NCBI RefSeq assembly: GCF_009914755.1
Contig: NC_060933.1
Origin: the human T2T-CHM13v2.0 reference genome, Homo sapiens
Length of the DNA stretch: 64,000 bases
Direction: 5' to 3' (one strand)
The first letter of the stretch is position 1, and each line of letters begins with the position of its first letter. The notes under the pieces were generated by a model. The model was not told where the DNA came from. It made no database searches and worked only from the letters and a program-made list of their open reading frames with translations. A program made the position numbers and the translations under genes. Of the stretch, positions 2,814-58,250 are shown in pieces.

Positions 2814-3191
<378 letters not shown>

Positions 3192-10740: not shown

Positions 10741-11799
10741 ACCCACAATTTGCTATTTTGAAATACTTATTGTAAAAATTTTAGAAAATGTACGAAGTGC
10801 AGCAACAAAATTTTATCACACAGTATCATTTAATAATTATATTTCTTTCCAGTCACTTCTTTGCTTTAAGATGTGTACATAATTTTATATCCCTTCTTGA
10901 AAAGTATATTATAATAATTTTTAATGTAGCTATCTTTTTTCCAAAACACTATTTAATAGTGAAATGCTAATGCATTATAAATGGCATTATGGTGTGTATG
11001 TAAAATAATATATGTAAAATTACATGTAATATATACATTACATATATGTATTGTATATATAACTGTAAAACATTTTTACACATACACAATTTTACATATT
11101 TTAAGTCTTTTTGTATTATTAAACACAAGATTTCACAGGTCTTTGCCTATTTCCTCAGAATTTGCAGAAATTATTTTAAACATTATAAAGTTAAATATTT
11201 CTCAGATTCATAATTTTACCAATTATTGTAATTAAAATTCTCATAAAGTTTAATTATGGATACAATTAAGTGAAAGTCCCAAGCTTATAGTTATTATTAA
11301 CTATTAATTCTGTGTGTGTGTGTACATGTATACAATCAGATCATATTTGTTATTCTTGGTATTCTATCAGATATCTGTTTAAAGTTATGAATCACAAGGA
11401 ACAAAATATCAAATCTGATACACTTCGAAGTCTCTGTCCTGTTTTTACACAATCAATCAATAGGGTGGTCATATCTGCAAAAGTAAAAGCCAATTAGGTG
11501 AAGTGGAAAAAGAGGAGTCTGGTTGTTCATTCAATAACAGGATTTCCAAAATAATGTTTGGATAATGGAATTGTTTTATTCTGTCATCATTTCTAACAAG
11601 TAGTTTTAACATTACCAAGCATACCTGTGCTTTGCCTTATGTTAACAAATTAGGCTGATCAGCAGCCAGTTGTTGGTCCCACAATATTCACTGGGGTTTG
11701 GCAAAGGGACAGCCACCTTAAACCCTTCTGGATTTGATAACTCAATGCACACATTCTCGCCTTCTGTCCATACTTGTGTTCCTGAGATCATCGCTTACC

Positions 11800-12170
11800 C
11801 CAAGACAGGTTCAATTAGGATCAAGAAGAATTCACTCCATTCTAGGACTTTTGGTTGTGTTGTTGGGGGAAGTAAACTCTTCCACTTGTCTGCTCTGTGG
11901 TGTTATGATCCCAAAGCTTCCAGGGACTACAAAAAGGGAGTTTAAAATTGAAACTGTGAAAGTAGAATCAGGCTGGATGATGGGAAGAGACATCACGTCC
12001 TGAAGGCATCACTGAGCCCTGAATCAAGTTATGCCTGAAGATGATGTATTCCTACTCTTCTAGTAAATGAGTCCATTCCTAATCTTTTAGTACATGAGTC
12101 AGTAAACGCCTTTCTTTTCCTGTAGACCAATTTGAGTCAGACTTTCTGTCACTCACAATTGAAAGTCCTA
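11800..12170 (+). mobile_element. Old MLT1-type LTR fragment
   Basis: gagccctgaatcaagttatgcctgaag and ccaatttgagtcagactttctgtcact resemble the MLT1J/K/L 3' end. Confidence 0.45.
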
Positions 12171-18522: not shown

Positions 18523-20017
18523 CTGCCACAATAACAAAGGCGATGTTACTGGGTGAGATGTTCACAGTCTTGGCCACATTTGCTTGGGTGTGGACATACT
18601 TCTACCAGCTTCCACACTCCGTATCTCTTTATAGCCATATTCAGGAAAACATGGTATCACATTCATCAAATGATTACTCTTGGGATACTGAGTTGTAACA
18701 GCATGTGATAATGAGGATGAAGTAATTAGGAGTAAGTCTAATAAAAGGTCTTTTCAATGGGGATTTATACCATTTTAGAAAGACCAAGGAAACATAACAA
18801 ATGAAAAGAAAGGGTAAATAACATATAGGTTTATAATATTCATGGAGATTCTGAAATTTACAACCTGCCTACTTAATATTTTTAAAGTATGAAATAATTC
18901 AGAATAAGGTGAAGTGAATTTGGCATCTTCAACTTTTCTATCACACTGTTCACATTTTGCAGTTACTTAAAATACATATGCGATGCCCATAACCTAAATG
19001 TATTTGCCTATAACTAGTCAAATGTTTACACTGGTTTTATTATGAGAAAAGAGATGGTATAACAGGGTATATACGTGATTTTCACTTAGTCTTCAGGAGG
19101 GTTTATGACTATCCTGTAAGTGTACGTACACATGAAGTAAATACTATGTTGTTTTCTTATTTCTTGAGACTTAGAACTTTCAACAGATTCTCACAGGGGT
19201 CTCTAATCTTAAAAAAAAATGGTTAAGAGCCATTGATCTCTGAACTTAGCTACCATTTTTACATGATCAGCAACTAAAACCACATTAGAAAGGTTTTGAG
19301 TTTCTCTCTGTTGTCTTCATTGTTTTAAGATAACTCCAGAATCTTCACGGTAGCAAGAAAGAAAATTAATTCATAGCTCTTGTGCACTTAAGGAGGAAAG
19401 CAATGGGAAGTTCAGATAATGAGGGAAACAGTGAATAATCTGAAAAATCCCTGCATTTTTGGATCCTAATTAAACAGCATGTGTAACACTTGGGCACGGG
19501 CTGTAGAAAATAGATGGATTCATTTACTGGAGGGTGTAGCTGACAGGCATATATAAATAGTGTGTCCCTTTATAAATGGGGTTTCTACAGTCTAAACAGA
19601 AATGTTAAGTGAGGTTTGAAAATCCAAGCGGAGTCAGTCTTTAAGAAGTGATTGAAGATGTCTAGCGGCAGTGAAACCTTCTGTTAAGATGAAGCAGATG
19701 ACCTTGAAGGTCCCTTTTAACCTTGAAAGTCTCTCTTAGTTGTGAGAAACTGAGATTTATTATCTTTTTGTTGAATGATCTAGGTACTCCAGAGTCTATC
19801 TTACCTTGCCAGAGTCTATCTTACCTTGATTTGATAGCTCGAATGCAACAAAAACATTGGGTTACTTTCTACTAAGTATTTTCAAAAAAAGAACAGACAT
19901 TGGACTCACAACTTTTCAATTTACTGGTTTTATCATCTTACTTTAATAAGTTATAAATAAGAAAAGTGGTATTTTCAGAACATTCCTAAATAAGAGGAAA
20001 TATATAGAAGTCTTCTT

Positions 20018-20083
<66 letters not shown>
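20018..20083. repeat. Compound (TG)n(TA)n microsatellite
   Basis: Directly visible: ~13 TG units followed by ~20 TA units. Confidence 0.97.
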
Positions 20084-20087
<4 letters not shown>

Positions 20088-20360
20088 GTATATGCATCGC
20101 AATTCCTTTAGCATTATACTAAAGGAATATTAAAATTATTTTATGACAAAAACAATGAGAACAGGCACACATAACACATTTATGTACCTATACATATAAG
20201 GATGCCTAAAGTTAAGAAGATGTATTAAATTAAAGATACTCTTTTCCTTAGAGATTATTTTAGAAAAGTTTAAATTAGCATTTGGGCAAATTATGAGTAA
20301 AGATAAAAGAAATATCCAGGTAATTCAATCCCAATATATACCATCTACTTTGTCTGAATA

Positions 20361-22657
20361 TGGGTATACACTGTTTTATTGTGCTATACTTTATGGAGTT
20401 TTGCAGATACTGTGTTTTTCACAAATTGAACGTCTGTGTCAATCTTGCATTGAACAAGTATATTGGTGCCATTTTTCCACCAGCACATACTTGGTTTGTG
20501 TCTCTGTGTAGCAGTTTGGTAATTCTTGTAATATTTCAAATTTTTTCATACTATTACATCTGTTAAAGTGATCTGTGATCACTGATCTTTGATGTTACTA
20601 CTGCAATTGGTTTGGGGTGCCATGAACCATGACCATAAGACAACAAACACTTAATTGACAAATGTGTGTGTTATGACTGCTTCACCAACCAGCAGTTTCC
20701 CCATCTGTCTTTTTCTCCTCAGGCCTCCCTATTCCTTGAGACACAACAATATCGAAATTAGGCCAGTTAATAACCCTACAATGGCCTCTAAGTGTTCAAG
20801 TGAAAGGGAGAGTCGCGTGTATCTAACTAACTTTAAATCACAAACTAGAAATAATTAAGCTTAAAGCCCAGATGTGCTGAAAGCTAGGCCTCTCGCACCA
20901 AACAGCCTAGTTGTGAATGCAAAGTTCCTGAAGGAAATTAAAAGTGCTACTCCAGTGAACACATGAATGATAAGGAAGTAGAACAGCTTTACTGCTGATA
21001 TGAAGAAAGTTTTAAAGGCCTGCATAGAAGATCAAATCATTTACAACATTCCCTTAAATCAAAGCCTAGGCCAGAGCAAGGCCCTAACTCTCTTCAATTC
21101 TATGAAGGCTGGGAGGTGAGGAGGCTGCAGAAGAAAAGTTTGAAGTTAGCACAGGTTGGCTTATGAGGTTTAAGGAAGGAAGCCAACCCCATAACATAAA
21201 AGTGCAAGGTGAAGCAATAAGTGCTGTTACAGAAGCTGTAGCAAGTTATCCAGAATATCTAGCTAAGATCATTGATGAAGGTGGCTACATTAAAAAAGAG
21301 ATCTTCAATGTAGACAAACATCATTATATTGGAAGAAGTTGTCATCTAAGACTTTGATAGCTACAGAGGAGGAGTCAATGCCTGACTTCAGAACTTCAAA
21401 GAACAGGCTGACTCTCTTGTTAGGGGCTCATGCAGCTGGTGACATTAAGCTGAAGCCAAAGCTCATTTACCATTTGAAAATCCTAGGGCTCTCAAGAATT
21501 ACACTAAATATACTCAAGTGAAAGGAAGAGTTATACATCTCTCATTTTAAGTCAAAAGCTTGAAAAAATTAAGTTTTAGTAAGGAAGGCACGTTGAACAT
21601 CAAGACAGGCTGAAAGCTCGACCTCTTGTACCAAATAGCCCAGTTCTATAAATGGAACAAGAAAGAATGGATGATAAGACATCCGTTTATAGCATGGTTG
21701 ACTGAACATTTTAAGGCCACTCTTGAGACCTAGTGCTTAGAATAAAAGATTCTTTTCAAGATAATACTGCTCATTGACAACATACCTTGTTACCCAAGAG
21801 CTCTGGTGGAATGTACAAGGAGATTAATGTTCTCATGCCTGTGAACACAATATTGATTCTGCAGCCCAATGGATCAAGGAGGAATTTCAACTTTAAAGTT
21901 TTGTTATTTAAGAACTACATTTTATAAGGCTATACATTCTATAGATAGATAGTGATTTCTCTGATAGGTCTGGGCAAAGTAAATTGAAAATTTACTGGAA
22001 GTAATTCACCATTCTATATGCCATTAAAAACATTTGTGATTCACGGGAGAAGATCAAATTATCAACAGTAACAGGAGTTTGGAAGAAGTTGATTCCAATC
22101 TTCATGGATGACTTTGAGGGGTTCAAGACTTCAGTAGAGGAAGAAATTGCAAAAATGGTGGAATAGCAAGATAACTAGAACTAGAAGTGGAGCCAGGAGA
22201 TGGGACTGAACTGCTGCAATCTCATGATAAAACCTGAATACATGAGGAGTTGTTCCTTACGGATGAGCAAAGAAAGTGGCTTCTCAAGATGGAATATACT
22301 CATGAAGATGCTGTGAACACTGTGGAAATGACAACAAAGGATTTAGAATAGTACATAAACAAAGTTAATAGAAAAGCAGCAGGGTTGCAGAGGAATGACT
22401 CCAATTTTGAAAGAAGTTCTACTGTGAGTAAAATGCTATCAAACAACATTGCATGGTGCAGAGAAGGCTCTTGACTTTGTCACTTAGTCACTTGATGTGG
22501 CAAACTTCATTATTATTTTCTTTTAAGAAATTGCTACAGCCACCTCACCCTTCAGAAACCACCGCCCATCGATTAGTCAGCAGCCATCAAAATAGAGGCA
22601 AGACCCTCAACCAGCAAAAAGATTAAAACTTACCGGAGGCTCAGATGATGATTAGCA
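20361..22657 (+). mobile_element. Tigger1 DNA transposon, 5' part (decayed transposase)
   Basis: TA then tgggtatacact...ttttattg. ORF-track peptides [18 protein letters not shown]... and [21 protein letters not shown] are pogo/Tigger1 transposase remnants. Confidence 0.9.
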
Positions 22658-25600
22658 TTTTTTTTTTTTTTTAAACTTTAAGTTCTGGGGTAGATGAGAA
22701 AAAAGTGCTGGTTTGTTACATAGGTATAAATGCACCAGGGTGGTTTACTGCACCCATCAACCCATCATCTACATTAGGTATATCTCCTGATGCTATCCCT
22801 CCCCCAGGCCCCCACCCCCTGGCAGGCCCTGGTGTGTGATGTTCGCTTCCCTGCGTCCACGTGTTCTCACTATTCCACTCCCACTTATAAGTGAGAATAT
22901 GCGGCGTTTGATTTTCTGTTCCTGTGTTAGTTTGCTGAGAATGATGGTTTCCAGCTTCATCCATGTCCCTGCAAAGGACATGAACTCATCCTTTTTTATG
23001 GCTGCACAGTATTCCATGGTGTATATGTGCCGCATTTTCTTTATCCAATCTATCATTGATGGACATTTGGGTTGCTTACAAGTCTTTGCTATTGTGAATA
23101 GTGCCACAATAAACATATGTGTGCATGTGTCTTTGTAGTAGAATGATTTACAATCCTTTGGGTATACACTCAGTAATGGGATTGCTGGGTCAAATGGTAT
23201 TTCTGGTTCTAGATCCTTGAGGAATCACCAAACTGTCTTCCACACTGGTTTAACTAATTTACACACCCACCAACAGTGTAAAAGCATTCCTATTTCTCCA
23301 CATCCTCCCCAGCATCTGTTGTTTCCTGACTTTTTAATGATCGACATTCTAATTGGTGTAAGATGGTATCTCATTGTGGTTTTGATTTGCATTTCTCTAA
23401 TGACCAGTGATAGTGAGCATTTTTTCATATGTTTGTCTGCCGCATCAGTGTCTTCTTTTGAGAAGTGTCTGTTCATATCCTTCGCCCACTTTTTGATGAG
23501 GTTGTTGTTTTCCTGTAAATTTGTTTAAGTTCTTTGTAGATTCTGGATATTAGCCCTTTGTCAGATGGATAGATAGCAAAAATTTCCTCCCATTCTGTAG
23601 GTTGCCTGTTCACTCTGATGGTAGTTTTTTATGCTGTGCAGAAGCTCTTTAGTTTAATTAGATCCCATTTGCCACTTTTGGCTTTAGTTGCCATTGCTTT
23701 TGGTGTTTTAGTCCTGAAGTCTTTGTGTATACCTATGTCCTGAATGGTATTGCCTAGGTTTTCTTCTAGGGGTTTTCATCATTTTACATCTTAGGTTTAA
23801 GTCTTTAATCCATCTTGAGTTAATTTTTGTATAAGGAAGGGATCCAGTCTCAGTTTTCTGCATATGGCCAGCCAGTTTTCCCAACACCATTTATTAAATA
23901 GAGGAGCCTTTCCCCATTCTTGTTTTCCCTCAGGTTTGTCAAAGATAAGATGTTTGCAGATGTGTGGTGTTACTTCTGAGGCCTCTGTTCTGTTCCATTG
24001 GTCTATATCTCTGTTTTGGTACCAGTACCATGCTGTTTTGGTTACTGTAGCCTTGTTTGAAGTCAGGTAGCATGATCTCTCAAGCCTTGTTCTTTTTGCT
24101 TAGGATTGTCTTGGCTTTGTGGGCTCTTTTTTGGTTCCATGTCAAATTTAAAGTAGTTTTTTCCCATTCTGTGAAGAAAGTCATTGGTAGCTTGATGGGG
24201 ATGGCATTGAATCTATAAATTACCTTGGGCAGTATGGCCATTTTCACGATATTGATTCTTCCTATCCGTGAGCATGGAATGTTCTTCCATTTGTGTCCTC
24301 TCTTGTTTCATTGAACAGTGGTTTGTAGTTCTCCTTGAAGAGGTCCTTCACATTCCTTGTTAAGTTGGACTCCTAGGTATTTTATCTTTTTTGAAGCAAT
24401 TGTGAATGGGAGTTCACTCGTGATTTGGCTATTATTGGTGTATAGGAATGCTTGTGATTTTTGCACATTGATTTTGTATCCTGAGACTTTCCTGAAGTTG
24501 CTTATCAGCTTAAGGAGATTTTGGGATGAGATGATGGGGTTTTCTAAATATACAATGTTGTCATGTGCAAACAGAGACAATTTGACTTCCACTTTTTCTA
24601 ATTGAATAACATTTATTTCTTTCTGTTGCCTGACTGCCTTGGCCAGAACTTCCAATACTGTGTTGAATAGGAGCAGTGAGAGAGGGCATCCCTCTCTTGT
24701 GCTACTTTTCAAAGGGAGTGCTTCCAGTTTTTGCCCATTCTGTAGGATAGTGGCTGTGCGTTTGTCATAAATAGCTCTTCTTCTTTTGAGATACGTTCCA
24801 TCAGTACCTAGTTTTTTGAGAGTTGTTAGCATAAAGGGCTCATGAATTTTGCCAAAGGCCTTTTCTGCATCTATTGAGATAATCATGTGGTTTTTGTCAT
24901 TGGCTCTGTGTATGTGATGGATTACGTTCATTGATTTGTGTATGTTGAACAAGCCTTGCATCCCAGGGATGAAGCCGACTTGATCGTGGTGGATAAGCTT
25001 TTTGATGTGCTGCTGGATTCGGTTTGCCAGTATTTTATTGAGGATTTTGGCATCGATGTTCATCAGGGATATTGGCCTGGAATTTTCTTTTTTGTTGTGT
25101 CTCTGCCAGGTTTTGGTATCAGGATGATGCTGGCCTCATAAAATGAGTTAGGAAGGAGTCCCTCTTTTTGTATTGTTTGCAATAGTTTCAGAAGGAATGG
25201 TACCAATTCCTCTTTGTACCTCTGGTAGAATTCGTCTGGTCCTGGACTTTTTTTGGTTGCTAGGCTATTAATTACTGCCTCAATTTCAGAACTTGTTATT
25301 GGTCTATGCAGAGATTCAACTTCTTCCTGGTTTAGTCTTGGGAGGGTGTACGTCTCCAGGAATTTATCCATTTCTTCTAGATTTTCTAGTTTATTTGCAT
25401 AGAGGTGTTGATAGTATTCTCTGATGGTAGTTTGTATTTGTGTGGGATCAGTGGTGATTTCCCCTTTGTCCTTTTTTATTGTGTCTGTTTGAGTCTTCTG
25501 TCTTTTCTATCTATTTTGTTGATCTTTTCCAAAAGCCAGCTCCTGGATTCATTGATTTTTTGAAGGGTTTTTCGTGTCTCTATCTCCTTCAGTTCTGTAG

Positions 25601-28600
25601 TGTTCTTAGTTATTTCTTGTCTTCTGTTAGCTTTTGAATTTGTTTGCTCTTGTTACTCTAGTTCAATTGTGATGTTAGGGTGTCGATTTTAGATCTTTCC
25701 TGCTTTCTCTTGTGGGCATTTAGTGCTATAAATTTCTCTCTACACACTGCTTTAAATGTGTCCCAGAGATTCTGGTACATTGTGTCTTTGTTCTCATTGG
25801 CTTCAAAGAACATCTTTATTTCTGCCTTCATTCTGTTATTTACCCAGTAGTCATTCAGGAGCAGGTTGTTCAGCTTCCATGTAGTTGTGTGGTTTTGAGT
25901 GGTTTTTTTTTTTAAATCTTGAGTTCTAATTTGATTGCACTGTGGTCTGAGAGACTGTTTGTTATGATTTCTGTTCTTTTGCATTTGCTGAGGAGTGTTT
26001 TACTTCCAATATGTGGTCAATGTTAGAATAAGTGCAATTTGGTGCTGAGAAGAATGTATAATTCTGTTGATTTGGGTGGAGAGTTCTGTAGATGTGTATT
26101 ATTAGGTCTGCTTGGTCCAGAGCTGTGTTCAAGTCCTGAATGTCCTTGCTAATGTTCTATCTCATTGATCTGTCTAATATTGACAGTGGGGTGTTAAAGT
26201 CTCCCACTATTATTGTGTGGGAGTCTAAGTCTCTTTGTAGGTCTCTAAGAACTTGCTTTATGAATCTGCATGCTCCTGTAGAGGGTTCATATATATTTAG
26301 GATACTTAGCTCTTCTTATTGCATTGACCTCTGTACGTAATGCCCTTCTTTGTTGGTTTAAAGTCCGTTTTATCAGAGACTAGGATTGTATCCCCTGCTT
26401 TGTTTTGCTTTCCATTTGCTTGGTAAATATTCCTCCATCCCTTTATTTTGAGCCTATGTGTGTCTTTGCATGTGAGATGGGTCTCCTGAATACAGCACAC
26501 TGATGGGTCTTCACTCCTCTTTATCCAATTGGCCAGTGTGTGTCTTTTAATTGGGGGCATTTAGCCTATTTACATTTAAGGTTAATAAGGTTATGTGTGA
26601 ATTTGATCCTGTCATTATGATGTTTGCTGGTTATTTGACTATTAATTGATGCAGTTTCTTCCCAGCATCGATGGTCTTTACAATTTGGTGTGTTTTTGCA
26701 GTGGCTGGTACCAGTTGTTCCTTTCCATGTTTAGTGCTTCCTTCAGGAGCTCTTGTAAGGCAGGCCTGGTGGTGACAAAATCTCTCAGCATTTGCTTGTC
26801 TGAAAAGGATTTTATTTCTCCTTCACTTATGAAGCTTAGTTTGGCTGGATATGAAATTCTGGGTTGAAAAGTCTTTTCTTTAGGAATGTTGAATATTGGC
26901 CCCACTGTCTTCTGGCTTGTAGGGTTGCTGTCGAGAGACCTGCTGTTAGTCTGATGTGCTTCCCTTTGTGGGCACGCCGACATTTGTCTCTGGCTGCCCT
27001 TAACATTTTTTCCTTCGTTTCAAGCTTGGTGAATCTGATGATTCATTGTGTGTCTTGGGGTTGCTCTTCTCGAAGAATATCTTAGTGGTGTTCTCAGTAT
27101 TTCCTGAATTTGAATGTTGGCCTGTCTTGCTAGGTTGGGGAAGTTCTTCTGGATAATATCCTGATATCCTGAAGAGTTTTCTCCAACTTGGTTCCATTCT
27201 CCCCTTCACTTTCAGGTAAACCAATCAAAGTAAATTTGGTGTTTTCATATAGTCCCATATTTCTCGGAGGCTTTGTTCATTTCTTTTTACTCTTTTCTCT
27301 AATCTTGTCTTCATGCTTTATTTCATTGAGTTGATCTTCAATCTCGGACATCCGTTCTTCCACTTGATTGATTTGGCTATTGATACTTGCGTATGCTTCA
27401 CGAAGATCTTGTGCTGTGTTTTTCAGCTCCATCAGGTCATTTATGTTTTTCTCTAAACTGCTTATTCTAGTTAGCAATTCCTCTAACCTTTTTTCCAGGT
27501 ACTTAGCTTCCTTGCATTAAATTAGTAACATGGTCCCTTAGCTCGGAGGAGTTTGTTATTACCCACGTTCTGAAGCTGACATCTGTCAATTTATCAAACT
27601 CATTCTCTGTCCTGTTTTGTTCCCTTGCTGGCGAGGAGTTGTGATCCTTTGGAGGAGAAGAGGCGTGCTGGTTTTTGGAATGTTCAGCCTTTTTGTGCTG
27701 GTTTCTCCCCATCTTCGTGGATTTATCTACCTTTGACCTTTGATGATGGTGACCTTCAGATGGGGTCTCTGGGTGGACGTGCTATTCCTTTCTGTCTGTC
27801 TGTTTGTTATTTTCCTTCTAACAAACACCCAGGCCTCTCTGCTGTAGGTTTGCTGGAGGTCTATTCCAGACGCTGTTTGCCTGGGTATTATCAGCAGAGG
27901 CTTCAGAACAGCAAAGATTGCTGCCTATTCCTTCCTCTGGAAGCTTCATCCCAGAGGAGCACCTGCCAGATGCCAGCCAGTGTTCTCCTGTATGAGGTAT
28001 CTGTCAGCCCCTACTGTGAGGTGTCACCCAGTCAGGATACATGGGGGTCAGGGACCCACTTGAGGAGAGAGTCTGTCCCTTATCAGAGCTCGAACACTGC
28101 ACTGGGAGAAATGCTGCGCTCATCAGAGCTGCCAGGTGGGGATGTTTACGTCTGCTGAAGCTGTGCCCACAGCTGCCCCTTCCGCCAGGTGCTTTGTCCC
28201 AGTGAGATGGGGGTTTTATCTGTAAGTAAGTCTGTGATTGGGGCTGCTGTCTTTCTTTCAGAGATGCCCTGCCCAGGGAGGAGTAATCCAGAGAAGCAGT
28301 TGGCCTTGCTGAGCTGCAGTGGACTCAGCCCTGTTTGAACTTCCTGCTGGCTTTGTTTACACTGTGAGGGTAAAACAAACAGCCTACTCTAGCCTCAGCA
28401 ATGGCAGATGCCTCTCCCCTCACGAAGCTCGAATGGCCCAGGTGGACCTCAGACAGCTGTACTCGCAGTGAGATTTTCAAGCCAGTGGATCGTATCTTGC
28501 TGGGCTCTGTGGGAGTGGATCGTATCTTGCTGGGCTCTGTGGGGGTGGGACACACCAAGCCAGGCACTGGAGGGAATCTCCTGGTTTACCAGTTGTGAAG

Positions 28601-28880
28601 ACTGCGGGAGAAGTGCAGTATCTGGGCCAGAGTGTACTGTTCCTCGTGGTACAGTCTCTCACGGCTTCCCTTGGCTAGGAAAGGGAAATCCCCTGACCCC
28701 TTGTGCTTCCTGGGTGAGGCAACGCCACACCCTGCTTTAGCTCACCCTTTGTGGGCTGCACCCACTGTCCAACCAGTCCCAATGAGATGAAATGGGAAAC
28801 GCAGAAATCCCCTGCCTTCTGTGTCAATCTCACTGGGAACAGCAGACCAGAGCTATTCCTATTCAGCCATCTTTCCAGCT
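22658..28880 (-). mobile_element. Full-length (~6.2 kb) decayed L1PA (L1PA6-8-like), same strand as PTPRD
   Basis: Poly(T) at 22658-22672 and 3' UTR. ORF2 fragments (24308-25063 RT; 25063-25371). ORF1 fragments (26678-26983 ...TTRPALQELLKEAL; 27503-27712 MGRNQ...). The 5' UTR ends at aagatggctgaatagg. Many frameshifts. Confidence 0.95.
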
Positions 28881-29051
28881 CTTGTAAGTACATTGTTGTT
28901 TGTTTAGACCTAATGCTATTGCACACTAAATAGACTATAGTATAAAGTAAACACAACTTTTATATGCACTGGGAAACCAAAAAGTATGTGTGACTCCCTT
29001 TATTGTGGTAATCTGGAACTAAACTCCCATAACGTCTCTGAGGTATGCCTG
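28881..29051 (+). mobile_element. Tigger1 3' end, separated from the 5' part by an L1 insertion
   Basis: taatgctattgcacact...gcactgggaaaccaaaaa...tctctgaggtatgcctg followed by TA. Confidence 0.88.
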
Positions 29052-30137
29052 TATTTGATTCCATGTGTCATTTCCTACAAGCTCTTTGGTTGGTTTGCAA
29101 AGGATGTTTAATAACTCAATAGAAAGTAGAAAGCAAATGTACATAGATAAAGGTTTGCTTCTTATAACATGCCTGAGAAACAAAGGATGCTAGAAGGGAC
29201 TTTAAACCTCAGCTAAGATAACTGAAGTCCAGAGAAACTTCATTATCATAGAGCCAAATAATAGAATTGAGATTAGAACACAGCTATCTTAGCCCAAGTC
29301 TAATATTTGTCCTATTTTGAGATCCTGCCTTCTATGTCGTAAAGAACTATAGTTTTCTTTGATGTGCTGAAGCAAAATATATTTTTTAATAAACTCTCTC
29401 AAGAGTTTCACCATAAAAAGATTAGATGTCAAGTTGCCAGAACCCTAAAATATATTAGTTTAAATAAAATTAGATGAATTGCTTTTGTTAGAAGGTTTTT
29501 GCATAGCAACTTCCAAAAACACTAAATTTATGGTGAATGTCTGAACTATTTACTTGCTATTTATTTCTATTAACTTCAATGACTTGAGTTATAAAATGCT
29601 CTAGAAACTATTGAAAATAATTAACTTGAAGGTGCTTCATTTTCTGATATAGCAACAATTTTCAAGCAAATTGCATTTTTTAACTGAGGTACCATACTAA
29701 GCACTTATTGACTGGCAGAACTTAATATTGTCATTAGGATTTATTTGATAGCTATTCATGAGGTTTTCACAAACAGAAGAAAGACAGTTATCAGTGCATT
29801 GCTATGAAAGCAAAAGCAAATATGAAATGATTAACAACGAATTATTACTAGGGGAGGTACCAACAATTCCCATTAAGGTAAAATTGGTAATTTGGTTTGT
29901 CTAATAGGAAGCAAATTTTTTGGGGGATAAACATTTTTTTGGGGCTAAACATTTTCCTCTGATTATTTTCACTTATTTTCACTTTATGAAAAGAAAGAGA
30001 AATCAATCCTGCTTTAAGTTTTGTAATACATTGCCAAGAATAAAATTTCAAATAAGCAAACTTACTACAAAAAGTGTATACAGACAATGAAGAAACACCA
30101 CCACTTATCACTGCTTTATTCACAAATGGAAACTTAC

Positions 30138-30292
30138 CTGCAATGGACTGAAATGGGTCCATCTTGGCCAAACTGTTCTTTTGTTTTATGGACTTGGCCG
30201 ATGAAGTCAATAAATCCTTCTCCGGACTTTGGCACTCCTTGCTCTGGCCAGTCAGTGAACTGGAACTGCCTTACTGTTCGGGACTGGCCGTC
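30138..30292 (-). CDS. PTPRD: PTPRD coding exon (155 nt): D2 WPE loop and VHC
   Basis: ttctaaag|GAC...TGC AG|gtaagt. Translates [51 protein letters not shown](S). Confidence 0.97.
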
Positions 30293-31974
30293 CTTTAGAA
30301 GGAAAGCCACATACCCGGCCGCAAAGGAAGACGCCAGGAGGATTCAGCAAGCATACGGACCACAAGAACAATCATTTTCATTTCCCGAAAACAAAAAGGG
30401 TAGAAAAAGTTAGGAACATGTTTAAATAGAAACTTAGTTATGGTTTATCTGCTATAAATATTGTCCACACTCACATACCTTTAAATCCTAAATTTATTTA
30501 CTCTTGAAATCCTAAATTTATTTACTCTTGCAGTGCCCAGTTAAAAACCTGGTTCTCGTTAGTAGCCATCCACATAGTTCCCCCATTAACAAATGTTTCT
30601 GAGACCCAAAGTGGGGGTTCGTAACCATTCATCATGTCTGCATTCCTTCCAAAATGGAACATATAAAATGGAACATATATATTCCATTTCAAAAATTTCA
30701 GAAACTAATTACTTTGTAATAAATATTGAAACAAGCACCTAGGCATGTCATCCAGACCAGAGCTTTTGCAGTTGTCGCAATAACTTCACATCTGCTGTGC
30801 TTGCGTATTTCTACCGTTGTCAAATGACAAATGGTGAAATTTAAAGTATCTGACACAAACCCGGTAGTTGCTGTTAACCTGGATGCCCCCCATGTCTCAG
30901 AGGAATACCATTTCTAGCCATGGCAGGGGACATAGCATGAACCATATGACTGTGCTGTTAAGTGGGAAGTAAAGCATCCCTCAAGGATACCAACGACTAT
31001 TAGCAAACAAATGCCCTTTTCTGAAAAAGAGCTCTCCCTGGCTGACCACAGGAATTAACAGTCTGTGGAGAGCTTTAACATAGATAAACCAAAAGGTAGA
31101 AAAAAAAGCCAGATTGAAGAGCAGTCTTTCTTTTTTAGAGTGATTAGGTAAAACTGCTCTGACTCACGAAGTATATCTGGGTTGAAAAGAAGACACTAAG
31201 GCATTTCTGATCTTCTGATCCCTTGTGGAAATTTAAGGTGTTTCTAGAAGTACAAGAAAAGTGGAAGGGAGCCTCTGTTTATAGAAGCAGAAATAATACA
31301 TTGCCCATCAACCTTCTCCCCTGACTCATCAGCAGAGAGAAATAATCCAAGCTTAGAGAGACCGATCTCATTTCTCATTTGAAGAGGTCCTACTCCTAAA
31401 TGGTCTCTTCTCATTAAAGAGCCTTCAACTTGTTCCTCCATTGTTTCTGTTAACACATTATTTCCTCATCAAACTTTTTTTAGATACACGTGTGCATGTT
31501 CCCAAGGTTCTGGGTAAGTGAACAGGGACTCAATCCTTTATCATTCACTCATATTGAGAAGAGAGAGGATCTCAGTGTGAGATGAGCACTCATCACCTCG
31601 CCTGGTGGTTTTCACAGGGACATGCCAGATTCCTGACTGATGTTATTTGGGGATGGAGATAAACAGGAAGATGACACCAAGTGTGTGGGAATACTGAGAA
31701 ATAGAGAAAACTATTTGGCCCCATAAGTACTTTATGGATGGTTACCATGGAAGCATGATTTACTTCCCTCTGTTTCTGGAAAAGATTTGGAAAGCACAGG
31801 AAGGAGACCCAGAAGCTAGGTAATACAGATTTATTCTCCTCTGAATGTCCTGGGGATTTCATTTCTGACCACAGTTGCTTTCAATAGCAAGAAGAGGTCA
31901 TGTGTGCAAATACCTTCTATTTGGAGGAGAGACTGCCTGACTTCATTTAAAGGTTACCTGTTTAACAATACTGT

Positions 31975-34900
31975 AATTTTCAACCCAGAATTGCATATCC
32001 AGCCAAATTAAGCTTCATAAGCAAAGGAGAAATAAAATCCTTTACAGAAAAGCAAATGCTGAGAGATTATGTCACCACCAGGCCTGCCTTACAAGAGCTC
32101 CTGAAGGAAGCACTAAACATGGAAAGGAACAACTGGTACCAGCCACTGCAAAAACATACCAAATTGTAAAGACCATCAACGCTATGAAGAAGCTGCATAA
32201 TTAATGGGCAAAATAACCAGCCAGCATCATAATGACAGAATCAAATTTGCATATAACAATATTAACCTTAAATGTACATGGACTAAATGCCCCAATTAAA
32301 AGACACGGACTGGCCAATTGGATAAAGAGTAAAGACCCATCTCACACGCAGAGATACACATAGGCTCAACATAAAGGGATGGAGGAAGATCTACCAAGCA
32401 AATGGAAGGCAAAAAAAAAGAGCAGGGGTTGCAATCCTAGTCTCTGATAAAACTGATGACTTTAAACCAACAAAGATCAAAAGAGACAAAGAAGGCCATT
32501 ACATAATGGCAAAGGGATCAATGAACGAAGAAGAGTTAACTATCCTAAATATATGTGACCCCAATACAGGAGCACCCAGATTCATAAAATAAAGCAAGTT
32601 CTTAGATACCTACAAAGAGACTTAGACTCCCACACAATAATAATAGGAGACTTTAACACCCCACTGTCAATATTAGATCAATGACACAGAATATTAGCAA
32701 GGACATTCAGGACTTGAAGTCAGCTCTGGACTAAGCAGACCTAATAGACATCTACAGAACTCTCCACCCCAAATCAAGAGAATATATATTCTCAACACCA
32801 CATTGCACTTATTCTAACATTGACCACATAATTGGAAGTAAAACACTCCTCAGCAAATGCAAAAGAAAGAATGGAAATCATAACAAACGGTCTCTCAGAC
32901 CACAGTGCAATCAAATTAGAACTCAAGATTAAAAAAAAAACCACTCAAAACCACACAACTACATGGAAGCTGAACCACCTGCTCCTGAATGACTACTGGG
33001 TAAATAACAGAATGAAGGCAGAAATAAAGATGTTCTTTGAAGCCAATGAGAACAAAGACACAATGTACCAGAATCTCTGGGACACATTTAAAGCAGTGTG
33101 TAGAGAGAAATTTATAGCACTAAATGCCCACAAGAGAAAGCAGGAAAGATCTAAAATCGACACCCTAACATCACAATTGAACTAGAGTAACAAGAGCAAA
33201 CAAATTCAAAAGCTAACAGAAGACAAGAAATAACTAAGAACACTACAGAACTGAAGGAGATAGACACACGAAAAACCCTTCAAAAAATCAATGAATCCAG
33301 GAGCTGGCTTTTGGAAAAGATCAACAAAATAGATAGAAAAGACAGAAGACTCAAACAGACACAATAAAAAAGGACAAAGGGGAAATCACCACTGATCCCA
33401 CACAAATACAAACTACCATCAGAGAATACTATCAACACCTCTATGCAAATAAACTAGAAAATCTAGAAGAAATGGATAAATTCCTGGAGACGTACACCCT
33501 CCCAAGACTAAACCAGGAAGAAGTTGAATCTCTGCATAGACCAATAACAAGTTCTGAAATTGAGGCAGTAATTAATAGCCTAGCAACCAAAAAAGTCCAG
33601 GACCAGATGAATTCTACCAGAGGTACAAAGAGGAGTTGGTACCATTCCTTCTGAAACTATTCCAAACAATACAAAAAGAGGGACTCCTTCCTAACTCATT
33701 TTATGAGGCCAGCATCATCCTGATACCAAAACCTGGCAGAGACACAACAAAAAAGAAAATTCCAGGCCAATATCCCTGATGAACATCGATGCCAAAATCC
33801 TCAGTACTGGCAAACCGAATCCAGCAGCACATCAAAAAGCTTATCCACCACGATCAAGTCGGCTTCATCCCTGGGATGCAAGGCTTGTTCAACATACACA
33901 AATCAATAAACATAATCCATCACATACACAGAACCAATGACAAAAACCACATGATTATCTCAATAGATGCAGAAAAGGCCTTTGGCAAAATTCAACACCA
34001 CTTTGTGCTAACAACTCTCAATAAACTAGGTACTGATGGAACGTATCTCAAAATAAGAAGAGCTATTTATGATAAACGCACAGCCACTGTCATAACGAAT
34101 GGGCAAAAACTGGAAGCATTCCCTTTGAAAACTGGCACAAGACAGGGATGCCCTCTCTCACCACTCCTATTCAACACAGTATTGGAAGTTCTGGCCAGGG
34201 CAATCAGGCAAGAGAAAGAAGTAACGGGTATTCAATTAGGAAAAGAGGAAGTGAAATTGTCTCTGTTTGCAGATGACATGATTGTATATTTAGAAGACCC
34301 CATTGTCTCAGCCCCAAATCTCAAGCTGATAAGAAACTTCAGCAAAATCTCAGGATAAAGAATTAATGTGCAAAAGTCACAAGCACTCCTATATACCAAT
34401 AACAGCCAAATCATGAGTGAACTCCCATTCACAATTGCTTCAAAGAGAATAAAATACCTAGGCATGTGAAGGACCTCTTCAAGGAGAACTGCAAACCACT
34501 GCTCAAGGAAATAAGAGAGGACACAAATGGAAGAACATTCCATGCTCACGGATAGGAAGAATCAATATCGTGAAAATGGCCATACTGCCCAAGGTAATTT
34601 ATAGATTCAATGCCATCCCCATCAAGCTACCAATGACTTTCTTCACAGAATGGGAAAAAACTACTTTAAATTTGACATGGAACCAAAAAAGAGCCCACAA
34701 AGCCAAGACAATCCTAAGCAAAAAGAACAAGGCTTGAGAGATCATGCTACCTGACTTCAAACAAGGCTACAGTAACCAAAACAGCATGGTACTGGTACCA
34801 AAACAGAGATATAGACCAATGGAACAGAACAGAGGCCTCAGAAGTAACGCCACACATCTGCAAACATCTTATCTTTGACAAACCTGAGGGAAAACAAGAA

Positions 34901-36149
34901 TGGGGAAAGGCTCCTCTATTTAATAAATGGTGTTGGGAAAACTGGCTGGCCATATGCAGAAAACTGAGACTGGATCCCTTCCTTATACAAAAATTAACTC
35001 AAGATGGATTAAAGACTTAAACCTAAGATGTAAAATGATGAAAACCCCTAGAAGAAAACCTAGGCAATACCATTCAGGACATAGGTATACACAAAGACTT
35101 CAGGACTAAAACACCAAAAGCAATGGCAACTAAAGCCAAAAGTGACAAATGGGATCTAATTAAACTAAAGAGCTTCTGCAGAGCAAAAAAAAAAAAAAAA
35201 AACTACCATCAGAGTGAACAGGCAACCTACAGAATGGGAGGAAATTTTTGCTATCTATCCACCTGACAAAGGGCTAATATCCAGAATCTACAAAGAACTT
35301 AAACGAATTTACAGGAAAACAACAACCTCATCAAAAAGTGGGCAAAGGATATGAACAGACACTTCTCAGAAGAAGACACCGATGCGGCAGACAAACATAT
35401 GAAAAAATGCTATCACTGGTCATTAGAGAAATGCAAATCAAAACCACAATGAGATACCATCTTACACCAGTTAGAATGGCGATCATTAAAAAGTCAGGAA
35501 ACAACAGATGCTGGGGAGGATGTGGAGAAATAGGAATGCTTTTACACTGTTGGTGGGTGTGTAAATTAGTTAAACCACTGTGGAAGACAGTTTGGTGATT
35601 CCTCAAGGATCTAGAACCAGAAATACCATTTGACCCAGCAATCCCATTACTGAGTGTATACCCAAAGGATTATAAATCATTCTACTATAAAGACACATGC
35701 ACACGTATGTTTATTGTGGCACTATTCACAATAGCAAAGACTTGTAACCAACCCAAATGTCCATCAATGATAGATTGGATAAAGAAAATGTGGCACATAT
35801 ACACTATGGAATATTATGGTGAGTGAGTATTCCATAAAAAAGGATGAGTTCATGTCCTTTGCAGGGACATGGATGAAGCTGGAAACCATCATTCTCAGCA
35901 AACTAACACAGGAACAGAAAACCAAACACTGCACTCAAAAGTGGGAGTTGAACAATGAGAACACACGGACACACGGAGGGGAACATCACACACTGGGGCC
36001 TGTTGCGGGTTTGGAGTCTAGGGGAACGATAGCATTAGGAGAAATACCTAATGTAGATGATGGGTTGATGTTGCACCAAACCACCGTGGCACATGTATAA
36101 TTAAATTATGTAACAAACCTGCATGTTCTGCACATGTATTCAGGACTTA
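31975..36149 (+). mobile_element. 5'-truncated L1PA (ORF1 C-terminus through 3' UTR), antisense to PTPRD
   Basis: Starts aattttcaacccagaat. ORF2 fragments at 32832-33185 and 33789-34358 (LFADDMI). 3' UTR runs to cacatgtattcaggactta. Confidence 0.95.
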
Positions 36150-37477
36150 CACTCCAGGAGCACAGACAAACAGCAAATGTAGTAGCTAAGAAAATTATAC
36201 AATCACAGGGAGACTTTAAAAAAAAAAAGGTGAGCAACTTCCGGTTTCAATCTTCTTTTGTTTATTGTGATCAGATTTAAGTTGTGCATGTGTGGAATAG
36301 GAAAGGTGTCTCTGCCATTGGTGGGGCCTGGTGCCTTTTCTTTATCACCAGGAATAGTTGGTGAGTTTACTCAAAATGCACTTTCTATTTTCACTCACAT
36401 ACCTAGCTTCAAATTCTGAAAGAGCACTATTTTTTTTTTTTTTAAACGGTGGGGCAGGTTACACTCAAGACCTAGAGATTTAACTGCTGCCTTGAATACT
36501 GTCACCTTCAGAATAGTTAATATAACTTTCTGGGATTAACAGGTCTGTCACCTAGGCCAACCCTCCTGCTAACCAATTTCTCTTTCACTTAAGGTCAACA
36601 GCCAGGGCCAGGCTTTGGGGATTAGCAGACAATCTCCAAACCTAAGTTTGGAGAAAGCTGCTTTCCAGAAAAAACAATGGATCAACTAAATAGCTTTACC
36701 CTGGAGTTTTATTCAACCCACCCACTGTGACAGTTCCAAACACAAGGCAGGTCTTTGAACTGACCTGGTCTCCCTTAAGATGTGTTTGTAATCATGGGTT
36801 GAAAGTGGCCAAAGGCGAAGATATCAGAGTTTATGCATAGAACATCTTACATCAGGGCTGAACCTTGGACTCAACAATCCAGATAAGAAATGCAGGATGA
36901 AAATTAGCCAACAAGGGTCATGGGAGCACAGCTCTCATGGACAGACACATTAGCACACTGAGGAATAAGCCATGCCAGGAATCAAATTAGAATGTGCAAA
37001 GCTTGTCAGATTTTTCTAAAGAATGCCATTTGCTCTGCGGTTTTAAAATCATACCAAATTAACCTCTGGGTCCATATGACCTAAAGGGCTTTGCAAAACA
37101 ACAACATATTTAGAGCCTCAAGTAATGAAGAAGTCAAAAAAGCTCCAAAGAGCATGAGCTGAGAAGGTGAATGTAAGCACAGCCAACCAATCAGTAAACA
37201 CTTCCCAGCACGAACACTCACCAAGTGCATCCCCAAGGTTGAGCTGCCAGATGTTATGTTTGAATGAAAGCCAAACTAAGGTTTGTGAGAAAGCTTGCCA
37301 GACAGAGGAAAAGTTACTCTTACATATTAAACATAAAAAAAAACGTTCTCCAGAATGAATGATTTCTCTTTGGGACAACAGTCAAGTGGCAAGTGCTTCT
37401 CCCAGAGAGAGAGAGAGAGAGGTATCTTAGACTACTTTTCAGCTAATGGTTAAGAGTTGAAGACTGTGCCAACTTAC

Positions 37478-50331: not shown

Positions 50332-51386
50332 AGAGTTAGGGAGATGACCCAGAGCCATGATCACTCCAGAAAGGTAAAATGTAGTACACTTGAGTGGTGT
50401 CTTCTGAGGATAAAGGAAGTTCACATTTCATCAACAGAGAAGGGGCAGAAACTAAGCACAAAGTTCCCAAACTGCCTGATAAGGATCCTTGTATAGAATA
50501 CTGAAAGATCAGGGATGAGCTACCAGGTTATATCCCTTTGGGTGTTTTATTTTTCCATGCTGGGTGAAAAGGTAATTTCCTAAAAAACCAAAACTCCGTC
50601 TCGAGAAAGAAAAAAAAAATCCACATGGGCCTAATCTGATTTTTTTTTTTTCAAATATGTAGACTCAAACTAAAATCTTCCAAAGACTTCTGCATGATCT
50701 TGGCTTTGTCCCAATATTATCTGCTGAACACACTCCCTATTATTCTTAAAATGTGATTCTCATGATAAATTAGAAGGCTAATGTGTTCGCGTAAAGAACA
50801 CCTGAATATGCCGCAGCAGGTCTCATTTTACAGATGGATAGAACAGGCCATTAGGCATGGATAGAGCAGACTCAGCTGGCTCTGATAATTGGTAGTTGAC
50901 TTGAATCTGAATAGAGGTCAATCAAATGATGCTACGGAAGTTTAGAGAACTATATCATTCACACAGAGATTTTCCTTGTAAACCATACCAGCTCACTCCG
51001 TATTCTAAATTCTGTTTAGAGTGATACAAAATTGCCCACTTTTTGAAAGAGGAGACAACCATTTACCAGGCCTGCCAAGTAAAGCTGCGTGGGTTGTATA
51101 CTGCTCAACCCAAAGGAAGTTACAATCACATGGACTACGTACAACGTGTGCAACCTGCTCAGTCCACACAGCAGGCTTGTCATTAGAAATATAAATGCTA
51201 TTACTCCTGATTCAGGTTAAGCAAGATTCAAAGAGAGGAGCCACTGGAAGGTACTTGGAGGGCATTTGAACTTTAGCAACTTTGATTAGTTTGTAAGGCA
51301 TATCATTTTCCCACACAGACAAGATTTTACTATGTACACAAATGCCAGGAGTTTTTTGGTTTTTCTTTTTAAAAAATGCTATTATT

Positions 51387-51692
<306 letters not shown>

Positions 51693-51956: not shown

Positions 51957-52629
<673 letters not shown>

Positions 52630-57402: not shown

Positions 57403-58250
<848 letters not shown>

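What the first reader, a model, noticed from the sequence alone, without database searches (positions are those of the whole stretch)
22680..36150. Inverted pair of sequence-homogenised L1s brackets a single PTPRD exon: candidate giant hairpin element
Seen: the minus-strand L1 (paired part 22680-26870) and the plus-strand L1 (31977-36150) form a ~4.2 kb inverted repeat centred near 29420. The ~5.1 kb loop contains only one exon (30138-30292). The ORF track gives identical junk peptides from both arms (23708-23890- = 34927-35109+; 23864-24070+ = 34747-34953-). The arms share deletions relative to the recalled L1 consensus: gacttcaaa^caaggctac, cccttcctt^atacaaaa, ggaccaga(t/c)g^aattctacc, aaaatagatag^aaaagacagaag, ggacacaa^atggaag. 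Independent insertions of an old L1PA family should not share these or be ~98-99% identical. Established: long intronic inverted repeats promote exon skipping, back-splicing and ADAR editing, and are NAHR substrates. Inference: the pre-mRNA can fold into a multi-kilobase near-perfect duplex that loops out the D2 WPE/VHC exon.
Basis: partly seen in the sequence, partly recalled or inferred. Interest (0 to 1): 0.9.

Follow-up and report, generated by a model that had tools for sequence, protein, structure and literature searches.

The report
Gene-converted inverted L1 pair in PTPRD
Two old L1 retrotransposon copies that face each other across one PTPRD exon have been partly copied onto each other by gene conversion, a known DNA process that here makes a rare, long, near-perfect inverted repeat inside a gene; any effect on the RNA is untested.

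Summary
The inverted repeat is real: 22706-26870 pairs with 36123-31977. It is 91.8% identical overall, not 98-99%. It is a mosaic. Three tracts, 56% of the arm length, are 97.6-99.1% identical: 23051-23640, 23641-24330 and 24941-25990. The rest is 87-91% identical, like unrelated L1 copies.

The identical tracts carry variants private to this pair: 67 of 1732 sites against 15 of 1260 in the divergent tracts.

The two elements differ. The left is a full-length minus-strand L1 of about 6.2 kb. The right is truncated at 31977, lies on the plus strand and has a different 3' end. They look like independent insertions partly homogenised by non-allelic gene conversion, most recently within about 0.1-6 Myr.

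The pre-mRNA could form a very long duplex around the 155-nt D2 exon, with perfect runs up to 336 bp. Nothing here shows that it forms or matters. The exon has consensus splice sites, and skipping it would shift the frame.

Verdict: a clear new example of a known process. The "giant hairpin element" idea is unsupported speculation.

The parts
22660..28880 (-). Left L1, apparently full length (about 6.2 kb), in the same sense as PTPRD. Poly-T (the poly-A tail on the minus strand) lies at 22660-22674, and the 5'UTR-like end is near 28880.
   Evidence: Sequence read. Pfam RVT_1 in 24308-25135(-) at E 1.9e-34; L1 ORF1 domains Tnp_22_dsRBD in 26678-27019(-) at E 7e-35 and Tnp_22_trimer in 27277-27516(-) at E 9e-7. 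The 5' end is placed by my recalled knowledge of the L1 5'UTR start and is approximate.
22706..26870 (-). Left arm: the part of the left L1 that pairs with the right L1 (4165 nt)
   Evidence: blastn HSP; MAFFT pair alignment
31977..36150 (+). Right L1, 5'-truncated inside the ORF1 C-terminal domain and antisense to PTPRD. L1 homology ends at about 36123-36150. About 70 nt of other sequence and an A10 run (36218-36228) follow.
   Evidence: Pfam RVT_1 in 33783-34358(+) at E 1.9e-28.
23051..23640 (.). Converted tract T1 (pairs with 35772-35177): 2.4% substitution differences, 16 shared-private sites. Probably an older conversion.
23641..24330 (.). Converted tract T2 (pairs with 35176-34487): 6 differences in 690 nt, 34 shared-private sites. 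Holds shared deletions d1, d2 and d5.
24941..25990 (.). Converted tract T4 (pairs with 33896-32851): 9 substitution differences in 1042 aligned nt, 32 shared-private sites. Holds shared deletions d3 and d4.
24331..24940 (.). Unconverted tract T3 (pairs with 34486-33897): 9.2% substitutions, 28 left-private and 19 right-private sites. A small interleaved patch near 24741-24900 may be an old short conversion.
   Evidence: With either arm's tract as query, the partner arm is not among the 40 scored genomic matches.
25991..26700 (.). Unconverted tract T5 (pairs with 32850-32147): 11.6% substitutions and 11 indel events.
   Evidence: The best unrelated copies are 87% (left) and 87% (right) identical, and the partner arm is not among the 40 scored matches.
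22706..23050 (.). Unconverted tract T0 (pairs with 36123-35773), in the 3'UTR region: 13.4% substitutions.
26871..31976 (.). Spacer or 'loop' (5106 nt): about 2 kb of the left L1's 5' part, then about 3.1 kb of non-L1 intron sequence with the exon.
30138..30292 (-). PTPRD coding exon of 155 nt, encoding the D2-domain WPE..VHC segment. The 3' splice site reads ttccttctaaag|G and the 5' splice site CAG|gtaagt. It lies 1684 nt from the right arm and 3267 nt from the left arm.
   Evidence: Hub annotation

Best explanation
Two L1 retrotransposons inserted independently, tens of millions of years ago, into the two introns that flank one PTPRD exon. They lie in opposite orientation, 5.1 kb apart.

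Since then, repeated non-crossover recombination between them (non-allelic, intrachromosomal gene conversion) has copied stretches of 0.6-1 kb from one copy onto the other. Each stretch carried the donor's private substitutions and small deletions with it. The result is a mosaic: about 56% of the 4.2-kb overlap is now 97.6-99.1% identical, and the rest keeps the roughly 10% divergence normal for unrelated copies of this age.

The youngest tracts have 2 differences in 1252 core bases, which puts them within roughly the last 0.1-6 Myr. The mutation rates behind that figure are recalled, not computed.

A crossover between the arms would invert the exon and break the gene, so only conversion products are expected to persist. 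That step is inference.

As a by-product, the PTPRD pre-mRNA contains two complementary 4.2-kb segments with perfect runs of up to 336 bp. These could pair, be edited by ADAR, or bring the exon's splice sites together. That step is inferred only. I see no sign that it is selected or that it regulates the exon.
For: Shown by calls:

1. The identity profile is a mosaic. The differences are far more clustered than chance: longest identical run 336 against at most 142 in 2000 shuffles, and variance per 100 columns 91 against at most 14.

2. Sites were classified against 28 and then 56 unrelated L1 copies from the same genome. Sites where both arms share a base carried by at most 15% of the other copies number 67 of 1732 in the high-identity tracts and 15 of 1260 in the low-identity tracts (Fisher p = 4e-6). 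The ordered site series shows unbroken runs of shared-private sites in T2 and T4, and only arm-private sites in T0, T3 and T5.

3. The five shared deletions lie in T2 and T4 and are absent from 25 of 28 up to 49 of 49 other copies.

4. In the converted tract 25041-25940 the partner arm is 99% identical and the best unrelated copy 89%, among 40 scored of 7597 candidates. In the unconverted tracts the partner is not among the 40 scored matches, and the best unrelated copies reach only 86-91%.

5. Independent origin. The left copy is full length with ORF1 domains; the right is truncated at 31977. The 3' ends differ. Homology stops at the L1 boundaries (first and last rows). In T5 the two arms have different sets of nearest genomic relatives.

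6. Known process. Gene conversion among transposon copies is elevated within 10 kb (passages of PMC6598467 and PMC8230782). Intrachromosomal gene conversion in L1 has been described (passage of PMC1920257).
Against: - Only one assembly was examined, and no other primate or other human haplotype. The timing, the direction, and the claim that the divergent state is ancestral are therefore inferred, not observed.
- Target-site duplications that would prove two separate insertions were not detectable above a random control.
- The background set is 56 copies chosen by similarity out of thousands of candidates. The 15%/50% thresholds are my own.
- 15 shared-private sites also occur in the 'unconverted' tracts, mostly at 24741-24900, so the tract map is not clean.
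- The age difference between T1 and T2 rests on a weak test (14 of 576 against 6 of 690, p = 0.04).
- No PRDM9-type hotspot motif lies in the arms, so nothing points to a specific initiating site.
Confidence: 0.85

Rival explanations
1. Functional RNA hairpin. The inverted L1 pair is a selected cis-regulatory element. Its duplex in the pre-mRNA loops out the D2 exon to control exon skipping or make a 155-nt circRNA, and the homogenisation is maintained because pairing matters.
For: - The arms lie in the two introns flanking the exon and are the only long complementary pair there.
- Predicted duplex energies are -1369 and -1225 kcal/mol for two tracts, against about -220 to -270 with a shuffled partner. 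There are 27 perfect runs of 30 bp or more, covering 2550 nt.
- Long duplexes more than 96% paired are rare and mostly intergenic (2,018 of 5,134,754 predictions, 88% intergenic; PMC11838218 section 10). An intragenic one is therefore unusual.
- Inverted repeats in flanking introns are the known driver of exon circularisation. That is recalled knowledge; LINE1-like reverse-complementary pairs appear in the abstract of 10.1101/100578, seen in the listing.
Against: - No expression, editing or junction data could be consulted.
- Nothing in print was found for this exon (searches; passages or supplement text).
- The exon has a consensus 5' splice site, is 155 nt so skipping shifts the frame, and encodes the core of the D2 domain.
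- 44% of the arm remains about 10% divergent with many indels. The converted tracts show no relation to the exon.
- Neutral gene conversion explains the pattern fully.
- The upstream arm is transcribed about 9 kb before its partner is complete, so the upstream intron may be spliced first (inference).
Confidence: 0.07
2. Single origin. The right copy is an inverted segmental duplication, or a nearby daughter retrotransposition, of the left L1. The divergent tracts are patches later overwritten from distant L1 donors.
For: Shared private deletions and substitutions could be inherited from a single parent. Both arms carry private changes in the divergent tracts, which this model also predicts.
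Against: - The homology is bounded exactly by L1 landmarks, the 3' end and a 5' truncation point, not by unique flanks.
- The 3' ends differ.
- At least three separate overwriting events from distant donors would be needed. No closer donor exists for either arm's divergent tracts: the best is 86-91% among 40 scored of about 6,500-8,000 candidates each.
- The 8-, 7- and 4-bp deletions break ORF2, so such a parent could not have copied itself autonomously (inference).
Confidence: 0.04
3. Assembly or polishing artefact. Reads from one arm were used to correct the other, creating false identity in T2T-CHM13.
For: Only one assembly was seen. The identical runs are long.
Against: - The whole structure is 13.5 kb, within the span of single long reads (inference).
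- The tracts have intermediate states: T1 at 2.4% and edge differences.
- The flanking tracts keep about 10% divergence and many indels, which would anchor reads unambiguously.
- This could not be tested here.
Confidence: 0.03

Closest known systems
Non-allelic gene conversion between neighbouring transposon copies (shown genome-wide for Alu; Aleshin and Zhi 2010, as cited in passages of PMC6598467 and PMC8230782)
   Same: Copies less than 10 kb apart. Non-diagnostic (private) mutations are shared between neighbours. Conversion is partial, leaving mosaics. The starting identity of about 89-90% falls in the range the PMC8230782 passage gives as optimal (89-100%).
   Different: These are L1 elements with tracts of 0.6-1 kb, not 300-bp Alus. 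The passage in PMC8230782 says most transposon studies looked at Alu. The arms are inverted and bracket a coding exon.
Long, highly paired predicted dsRNAs formed by inverted LINE pairs (dsRNAscan preprint PMC11838218, section 10 read); depletion of long near-perfect dsRNA (Barak et al. 2020, PMC7006430, passages)
   Same: An inverted LINE pair with stretches longer than 300 bp and more than 96% paired. T2 and T4 meet that criterion by sequence.
   Different: This pair is intragenic in a large gene, while 88% of that class is intergenic. Its near-perfection comes from gene conversion between old elements, not from young insertions; the phrase 'gene conversion' occurs 0 times in the main text of either paper. 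Barak et al. discarded pre-mRNAs over 1 Mb, which would exclude PTPRD.
Exon circularisation or looping by inverted repeats in flanking introns (inverted Alus in human: recalled, no call; LINE1-like reverse-complementary pairs in maize: abstract of 10.1101/100578 in the listing)
   Same: Complementary repeats in the introns on both sides of an exon, with no stronger within-intron competitor.
   Different: No back-splice junction is known for this exon. The arms are 4.2 kb rather than 300 bp and lie 1.7 and 3.3 kb from the splice sites. The exon is only 155 nt.
Large palindromes with arm-to-arm gene conversion on sex chromosomes (recalled; PMC11168930 seen only in the listing)
   Same: Inverted arms kept similar by intrachromosomal gene conversion.
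   Different: Those arms are segmental duplications of unique sequence, tens to hundreds of kb long and uniformly over 99% identical. Here the arms are two separate transposon insertions, identical only in patches.

Membership tests
LINE-1 (L1) retrotransposon copy | ORF2 reverse-transcriptase domain | tested here: met
   Pfam RVT_1 in both arms, E 1.9e-34 (left) and 1.9e-28 (right)
LINE-1 (L1) retrotransposon copy | L1 ORF1 domains | tested here: met
   Tnp_22_dsRBD (E 7e-35) and Tnp_22_trimer (E 9e-7) in the left element only. The right copy starts inside the dsRBD-like domain.
LINE-1 (L1) retrotransposon copy | 3' poly-A tail and flanking target-site duplication | tested here: inconclusive
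   The left copy has T14 at 22660-22674. On the right, the A10 run at 36218-36228 is separated from the last L1-like base by about 70 nt. No target-site duplication scored above the random control: 14 and 15 against a random mean of 14.7 and a 95th percentile of 19.
LINE-1 (L1) retrotransposon copy | Thousands of dispersed related copies in the genome | tested here: met
   6,496 to 11,823 first-look candidates per query tract
Non-allelic (interlocus) gene conversion tracts | Discrete high-identity tracts within otherwise diverged paralogues, more clustered than chance | tested here: met
Non-allelic (interlocus) gene conversion tracts | Private (non-family) variants shared by the two copies, confined to those tracts | tested here: met
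   67 of 1732 against 15 of 1260 sites; five shared deletions; site series
Non-allelic (interlocus) gene conversion tracts | Tree incongruence: paralogues within a species closer than orthologues between species | not testable with these tools
   No primate genome other than the window's own assembly is held
Inverted-repeat-driven exon circularisation or skipping | Complementary sequences in both flanking introns, not out-competed by within-intron pairs | tested here: met
   Self-comparison of the window. The L1 pair is the only repeat pair of 120 bp or more touching introns 18523-30137 and 30293-37477.
Inverted-repeat-driven exon circularisation or skipping | Observed back-splice or skipping junction that depends on the repeats | not testable with these tools
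   No RNA data are held. The literature searches and passages found none for this exon.
Palindromic segmental duplication | Arms include unique non-repeat sequence and are uniformly near-identical | tested here: not met
   Homology ends at the L1 boundaries and identity ranges from 65 to 100 matching columns per 100
Long highly paired dsRNA class (over 300 bp, over 96% paired) | Length and pairing of the predicted duplex | tested here: met
   T2: 690 nt with 6 differences. T4: 1042 aligned nt with 9 substitution differences and 4 indel events. Perfect runs of 336, 329, 295 and 288.
Long highly paired dsRNA class (over 300 bp, over 96% paired) | The duplex forms in vivo (editing clusters or structure probing) | not testable with these tools
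   No RNA-seq, editing or structure-probing data are available

The most novel reading that the evidence does not exclude
Gene conversion on the human lineage has 'rejuvenated' two roughly 30-Myr-old, mutually diverged L1s into an intragenic dsRNA with perfect runs of about 290-340 bp. It sits around an essential PTPRD phosphatase exon and belongs to the rare class thought to be selected against even in pre-mRNA. On this reading the tracts are human-specific or still polymorphic. They create a heavily ADAR-edited intronic duplex in neurons that measurably alters inclusion or circularisation of the D2 exon. More generally, gene conversion rather than young insertion would be what generates many of the genome's long near-perfect LINE duplexes.
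Probability: 0.12. Interest if true: 0.6.

Novelty: new member of a known kind. Interest (0 to 1): 0.35.

Why it matters
This is a clean, well-controlled example of L1-L1 gene conversion. Private substitutions and deletions of one copy have been written into a neighbour 5 kb away. Most such work has been done on Alu.

Three practical consequences follow:
1. Divergence-based dating or subfamily calling of either element would be wrong in the converted tracts.
2. Perfect inverted homology of about 290-340 bp on both sides of a coding exon is a substrate for an inversion that would inactivate PTPRD. The locus is therefore worth a look in long-read structural-variant sets.
3. Conversion can regenerate long near-perfect dsRNA from old repeats. 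Neither of the two genome-wide dsRNA surveys I read uses the phrase 'gene conversion' in its main text.

None of this shows a function for the hairpin.

Tried and rejected
- Target-site duplications for each L1: best local matches scored 14 and 15, no better than 200 random flank pairs (mean 14.7, 95th percentile 19). This gave no information.
- PRDM9-type 13-mer (motif recalled): one match in the window, at 56485 and outside the arms, with 0.57 expected by chance.
- Rfam over 22000-37000: no family at gathering score.
- hsa_circ_0086354 (host gene PTPRD): the main text and the two held supplement files of PMC8783515 give no coordinates, so it cannot be linked to this exon. PMC10619537 mentions PTPRD only as an mRNA.
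- Search for 'PTPRD' with 'inverted repeat': 12 papers, 10 listed, none about this locus judging by titles and abstracts.
How common such homogenised pairs are therefore rests on the published count only.
- Subfamily assignment (L1PA6-8) and comparison with a family consensus: no repeat library is held. I compared the arms with individual genomic copies instead and built no consensus.
- Direction of conversion (which arm was the donor) cannot be inferred from one genome.
- Rivals considered and rejected (see the rival explanations): inherited sub-lineage or daughter copy, palindromic duplication, and overwriting from distant donors.
Full report
**1. The observation**

The repeat finder returns ten collinear inverted pairs between 22755-26870 and 31977-36070. 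A gapped blastn joins them into one alignment: 22706-26870 against 36123-31977, 4230 columns, 197 mismatches, 148 gap columns, 91.8% identity. The midpoint is 29423 and the spacer is 5106 nt.

The exon 30138-30292 lies in the spacer. It translates to [51 protein letters not shown], so the "WPE/VHC" description is right. Two pairs of ORF remnants from the arms are identical in translation.

The claim of about 98-99% identity is not right for the arms as a whole. In 100-column windows the match count ranges from 65 to 100.

**2. Anatomy**

Both arms are L1. Pfam finds RVT_1 in each (E 1.9e-34 and 1.9e-28). The two elements are not alike:

- **Left element.** It is on the minus strand, the same sense as PTPRD. 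It has a T14 run at 22660-22674 followed by the reverse complement of an L1 3' end. It continues inward past the end of the repeat, through the ORF1 domains Tnp_22_dsRBD (26678-27019) and Tnp_22_trimer (27277-27516), and through 5'UTR-like sequence to about 28880. It is an essentially full-length copy of about 6.2 kb. The 5' end is placed from my recalled knowledge of the L1 5'UTR.
- **Right element.** It is on the plus strand. It begins abruptly at 31977, inside the ORF1 C-terminal domain. It loses L1 similarity at about 36123-36150. About 70 nt of other sequence and an A10 run follow.

The repeat therefore ends inward at the right copy's 5' truncation and outward at the L1 3' ends. About 2 kb of the "loop" is L1. 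Target-site duplications could not be found above a random control.

**3. The mosaic**

| Tract | Left coordinates | Substitution differences | State |
|---|---|---|---|
| T0 | 22706-23050 | 13.4% | divergent |
| T1 | 23051-23640 | 2.4% | converted, probably older |
| T2 | 23641-24330 | 0.87% (6 of 690) | converted |
| T3 | 24331-24940 | 9.2% | divergent |
| T4 | 24941-25990 | 0.86% (9 of 1042) | converted |
| T5 | 25991-26700 | 11.6%, plus 11 indel events | divergent |

A short segment at 26701-26810 has 3 differences in 110 nt. T1, T2 and T4 make up 56% of the arm.

The differences are much more clustered than chance. The longest identical run is 336 columns, against a mean of 73 and a maximum of 142 in 2000 shuffles. 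The variance per 100 columns is 91, against at most 14.

**4. Is the high identity just family conservation?**

No. The window's own genome could be searched.

- With 25041-25940 as query, the partner arm is 99% identical and the best unrelated copy 89% (40 scored of 7597 candidates).
- With 22900-23640 as query, the partner is 95% and the best unrelated copy 92%.
- Across the arm, 28 unrelated copies match the left arm at medians of 83-93.5% per 100 bp in windows covered by at least 17 copies. That is the same range as arm-to-arm identity in T3 and T5.
- With the T3 and T5 tracts of either arm as query, the partner arm does not appear among the 40 scored matches. The best unrelated copies reach 86-91%.

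**5. The decisive test: shared private variants**

Each aligned site was classified by how many of the unrelated copies carry the arm's base. A "shared-private" site is one where the two arms agree but at most 15% of the other copies do.

- With 28 background copies, shared-private sites number 67 of 1732 in T2 plus T4 against 15 of 1260 in T3 plus T5 (Fisher p = 4e-6). Arm-to-arm substitutions number 15 of 1732 against 132 of 1260.
- With 56 background copies, the ordered series of informative sites shows unbroken runs of shared-private sites through T2 and T4. T0, T3 and T5 show almost only left-private or right-private sites.
Unrelated copies have extra bases there: 46 of 48 (an 8-bp deletion), 49 of 49 (7 bp), 29 of 29 (12 bp), 25 of 28 (a variable region) and 44 of 48 (4 bp).

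Mutations that arose in one decayed copy are therefore present in the other, but only inside discrete tracts. That is the signature of gene conversion. It is not the signature of conservation, of a common defective parent, or of a simple duplication.

**6. Rivals**

- **Inverted segmental duplication.** It would include unique flanks and be uniformly similar. Neither holds.
- **Daughter copy or shared sub-lineage.** It would share private variants along the whole length and should have other relatives. The best unrelated copy is 89-92%.
- **Identical copies later overwritten from distant donors.** This needs at least three such events, and no closer donor is found for any divergent tract.
- **Polishing artefact.** It cannot be excluded with one assembly. 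It is unlikely given the divergent anchoring tracts and the intermediate state of T1.

**7. Timing (inference; rates recalled)**

Arm-private sites in the divergent tracts run at about 4% per arm, consistent with insertions tens of Myr old.

The cores of T2 and T4 (23672-24305 and 25248-25867) have 2 differences in 1252 nt. At 0.5e-9 to 1.7e-9 substitutions per site per year, that is about 0.5-1.6 Myr, with a Poisson range of 0.06-5.8 Myr. T1 gives about 7-24 Myr. T1 differs from T2 only weakly (p = 0.04). So "at least two episodes" is likely but not firm.

**8. Mechanism**

Non-allelic gene conversion between transposon copies is elevated within about 10 kb and favoured at 89-100% identity (passages of PMC6598467 and PMC8230782). 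Intrachromosomal conversion in L1 has been described (passage of PMC1920257). This pair is 5.1 kb apart and about 89% identical where unconverted, so it fits.

A crossover would invert the spacer together with the exon. That should be deleterious, and it would explain why only non-crossover products are seen (inference). No PRDM9-type motif lies in the arms.

**9. RNA level**

PTPRD is transcribed from the minus strand. The pre-mRNA therefore carries the right L1 in antisense (upstream intron, 7185 nt) and the left L1 in sense (downstream intron, 11615 nt). The arms lie 1684 and 3267 nt from the exon.

- Predicted duplex energies are -1369 kcal/mol (738-nt tract) and -1225 kcal/mol (664-nt tract), against -220 to -270 for shuffled partners.
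- Perfect runs reach 336, 329, 295 and 288 bp. There are 27 runs of 30 bp or more, covering 2550 nt.
- No other repeat pair of 120 bp or more lies in these two introns.

Evidence that it is used is nil:

- The 5' splice site is CAG|GTAAGT and the 3' site has a pyrimidine tract with AG.
- Skipping 155 nt shifts the frame.
- No paper found links a circRNA, skipping or an inverted repeat to this exon.

**10. Context**

The dsRNAscan preprint (PMC11838218, section 10 read in full) counts 2,018 of 5,134,754 predicted human dsRNAs as both longer than 300 bp and more than 96% paired. Most are between inverted LINEs, and 88% are intergenic.

Barak et al. (PMC7006430, passages only) report depletion of such duplexes even in pre-mRNA. 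They discarded pre-mRNAs over 1 Mb, which would exclude PTPRD.

The phrase "gene conversion" occurs in the main text of neither paper (0 occurrences). I could not see their supplements.

This locus is thus a member of a rare but described class. What this analysis adds is that its near-perfection was produced by gene conversion between old copies.

**11. Limits**

- One assembly only.
- 56 background copies, chosen by similarity.
- My own classification thresholds.
- No repeat-family library, so no subfamily name.
- No RNA data.

**Verdict**

It is a new example of a known process. The proposed hairpin function remains speculation.

Noticed in passing
window 36123-36228: The right L1 loses L1 similarity at about 36123-36150. 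About 70 nt of unrelated sequence and then an A10 run (36218-36228) follow. This could be a short 3' transduction or a decayed or rearranged tail. The left L1 has an ordinary 3' end with T14.
   Followed up: no
window 28485-28544: A perfect-looking tandem duplication of about 30 bp (two adjacent copies) lies inside the 5'UTR-like part of the left L1, seen while reading the sequence.
   Followed up: no
window 2830-3146, 4215-4454, 51368-51690, 52003-52289, 57405-57704, 57878-58209: Six Alu-sized repeats are 73-85% identical to one another. They include two adjacent inverted pairs only a few hundred bp apart (51398-51666 with 52003-52278 at 80%; 57407-57683 with 57878-58164 at 77%). These show no homogenisation, unlike the L1 pair. 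The family name was not verified.
   Followed up: partly
window 52374-52521: An AT/GT-rich microsatellite: period 8 (ATATATGT), about 18 copies, 84% matches.
   Followed up: no
window 24741-24900 (pairs with about 34096-33940): Inside the otherwise unconverted tract T3, shared-private sites are interleaved with left- and right-private sites (series 'RSSRSLSLSRSR'). This may be an old short conversion patch or patchy mismatch repair.
   Followed up: partly
window 25991-26700 and 32147-32850: In this unconverted tract the two arms have different sets of nearest genomic relatives. For example, the copy at G000:C6:120023069 is 87% identical to the left arm but 82% to the right. This hints that the two L1s came from different source lineages.
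   Followed up: partly
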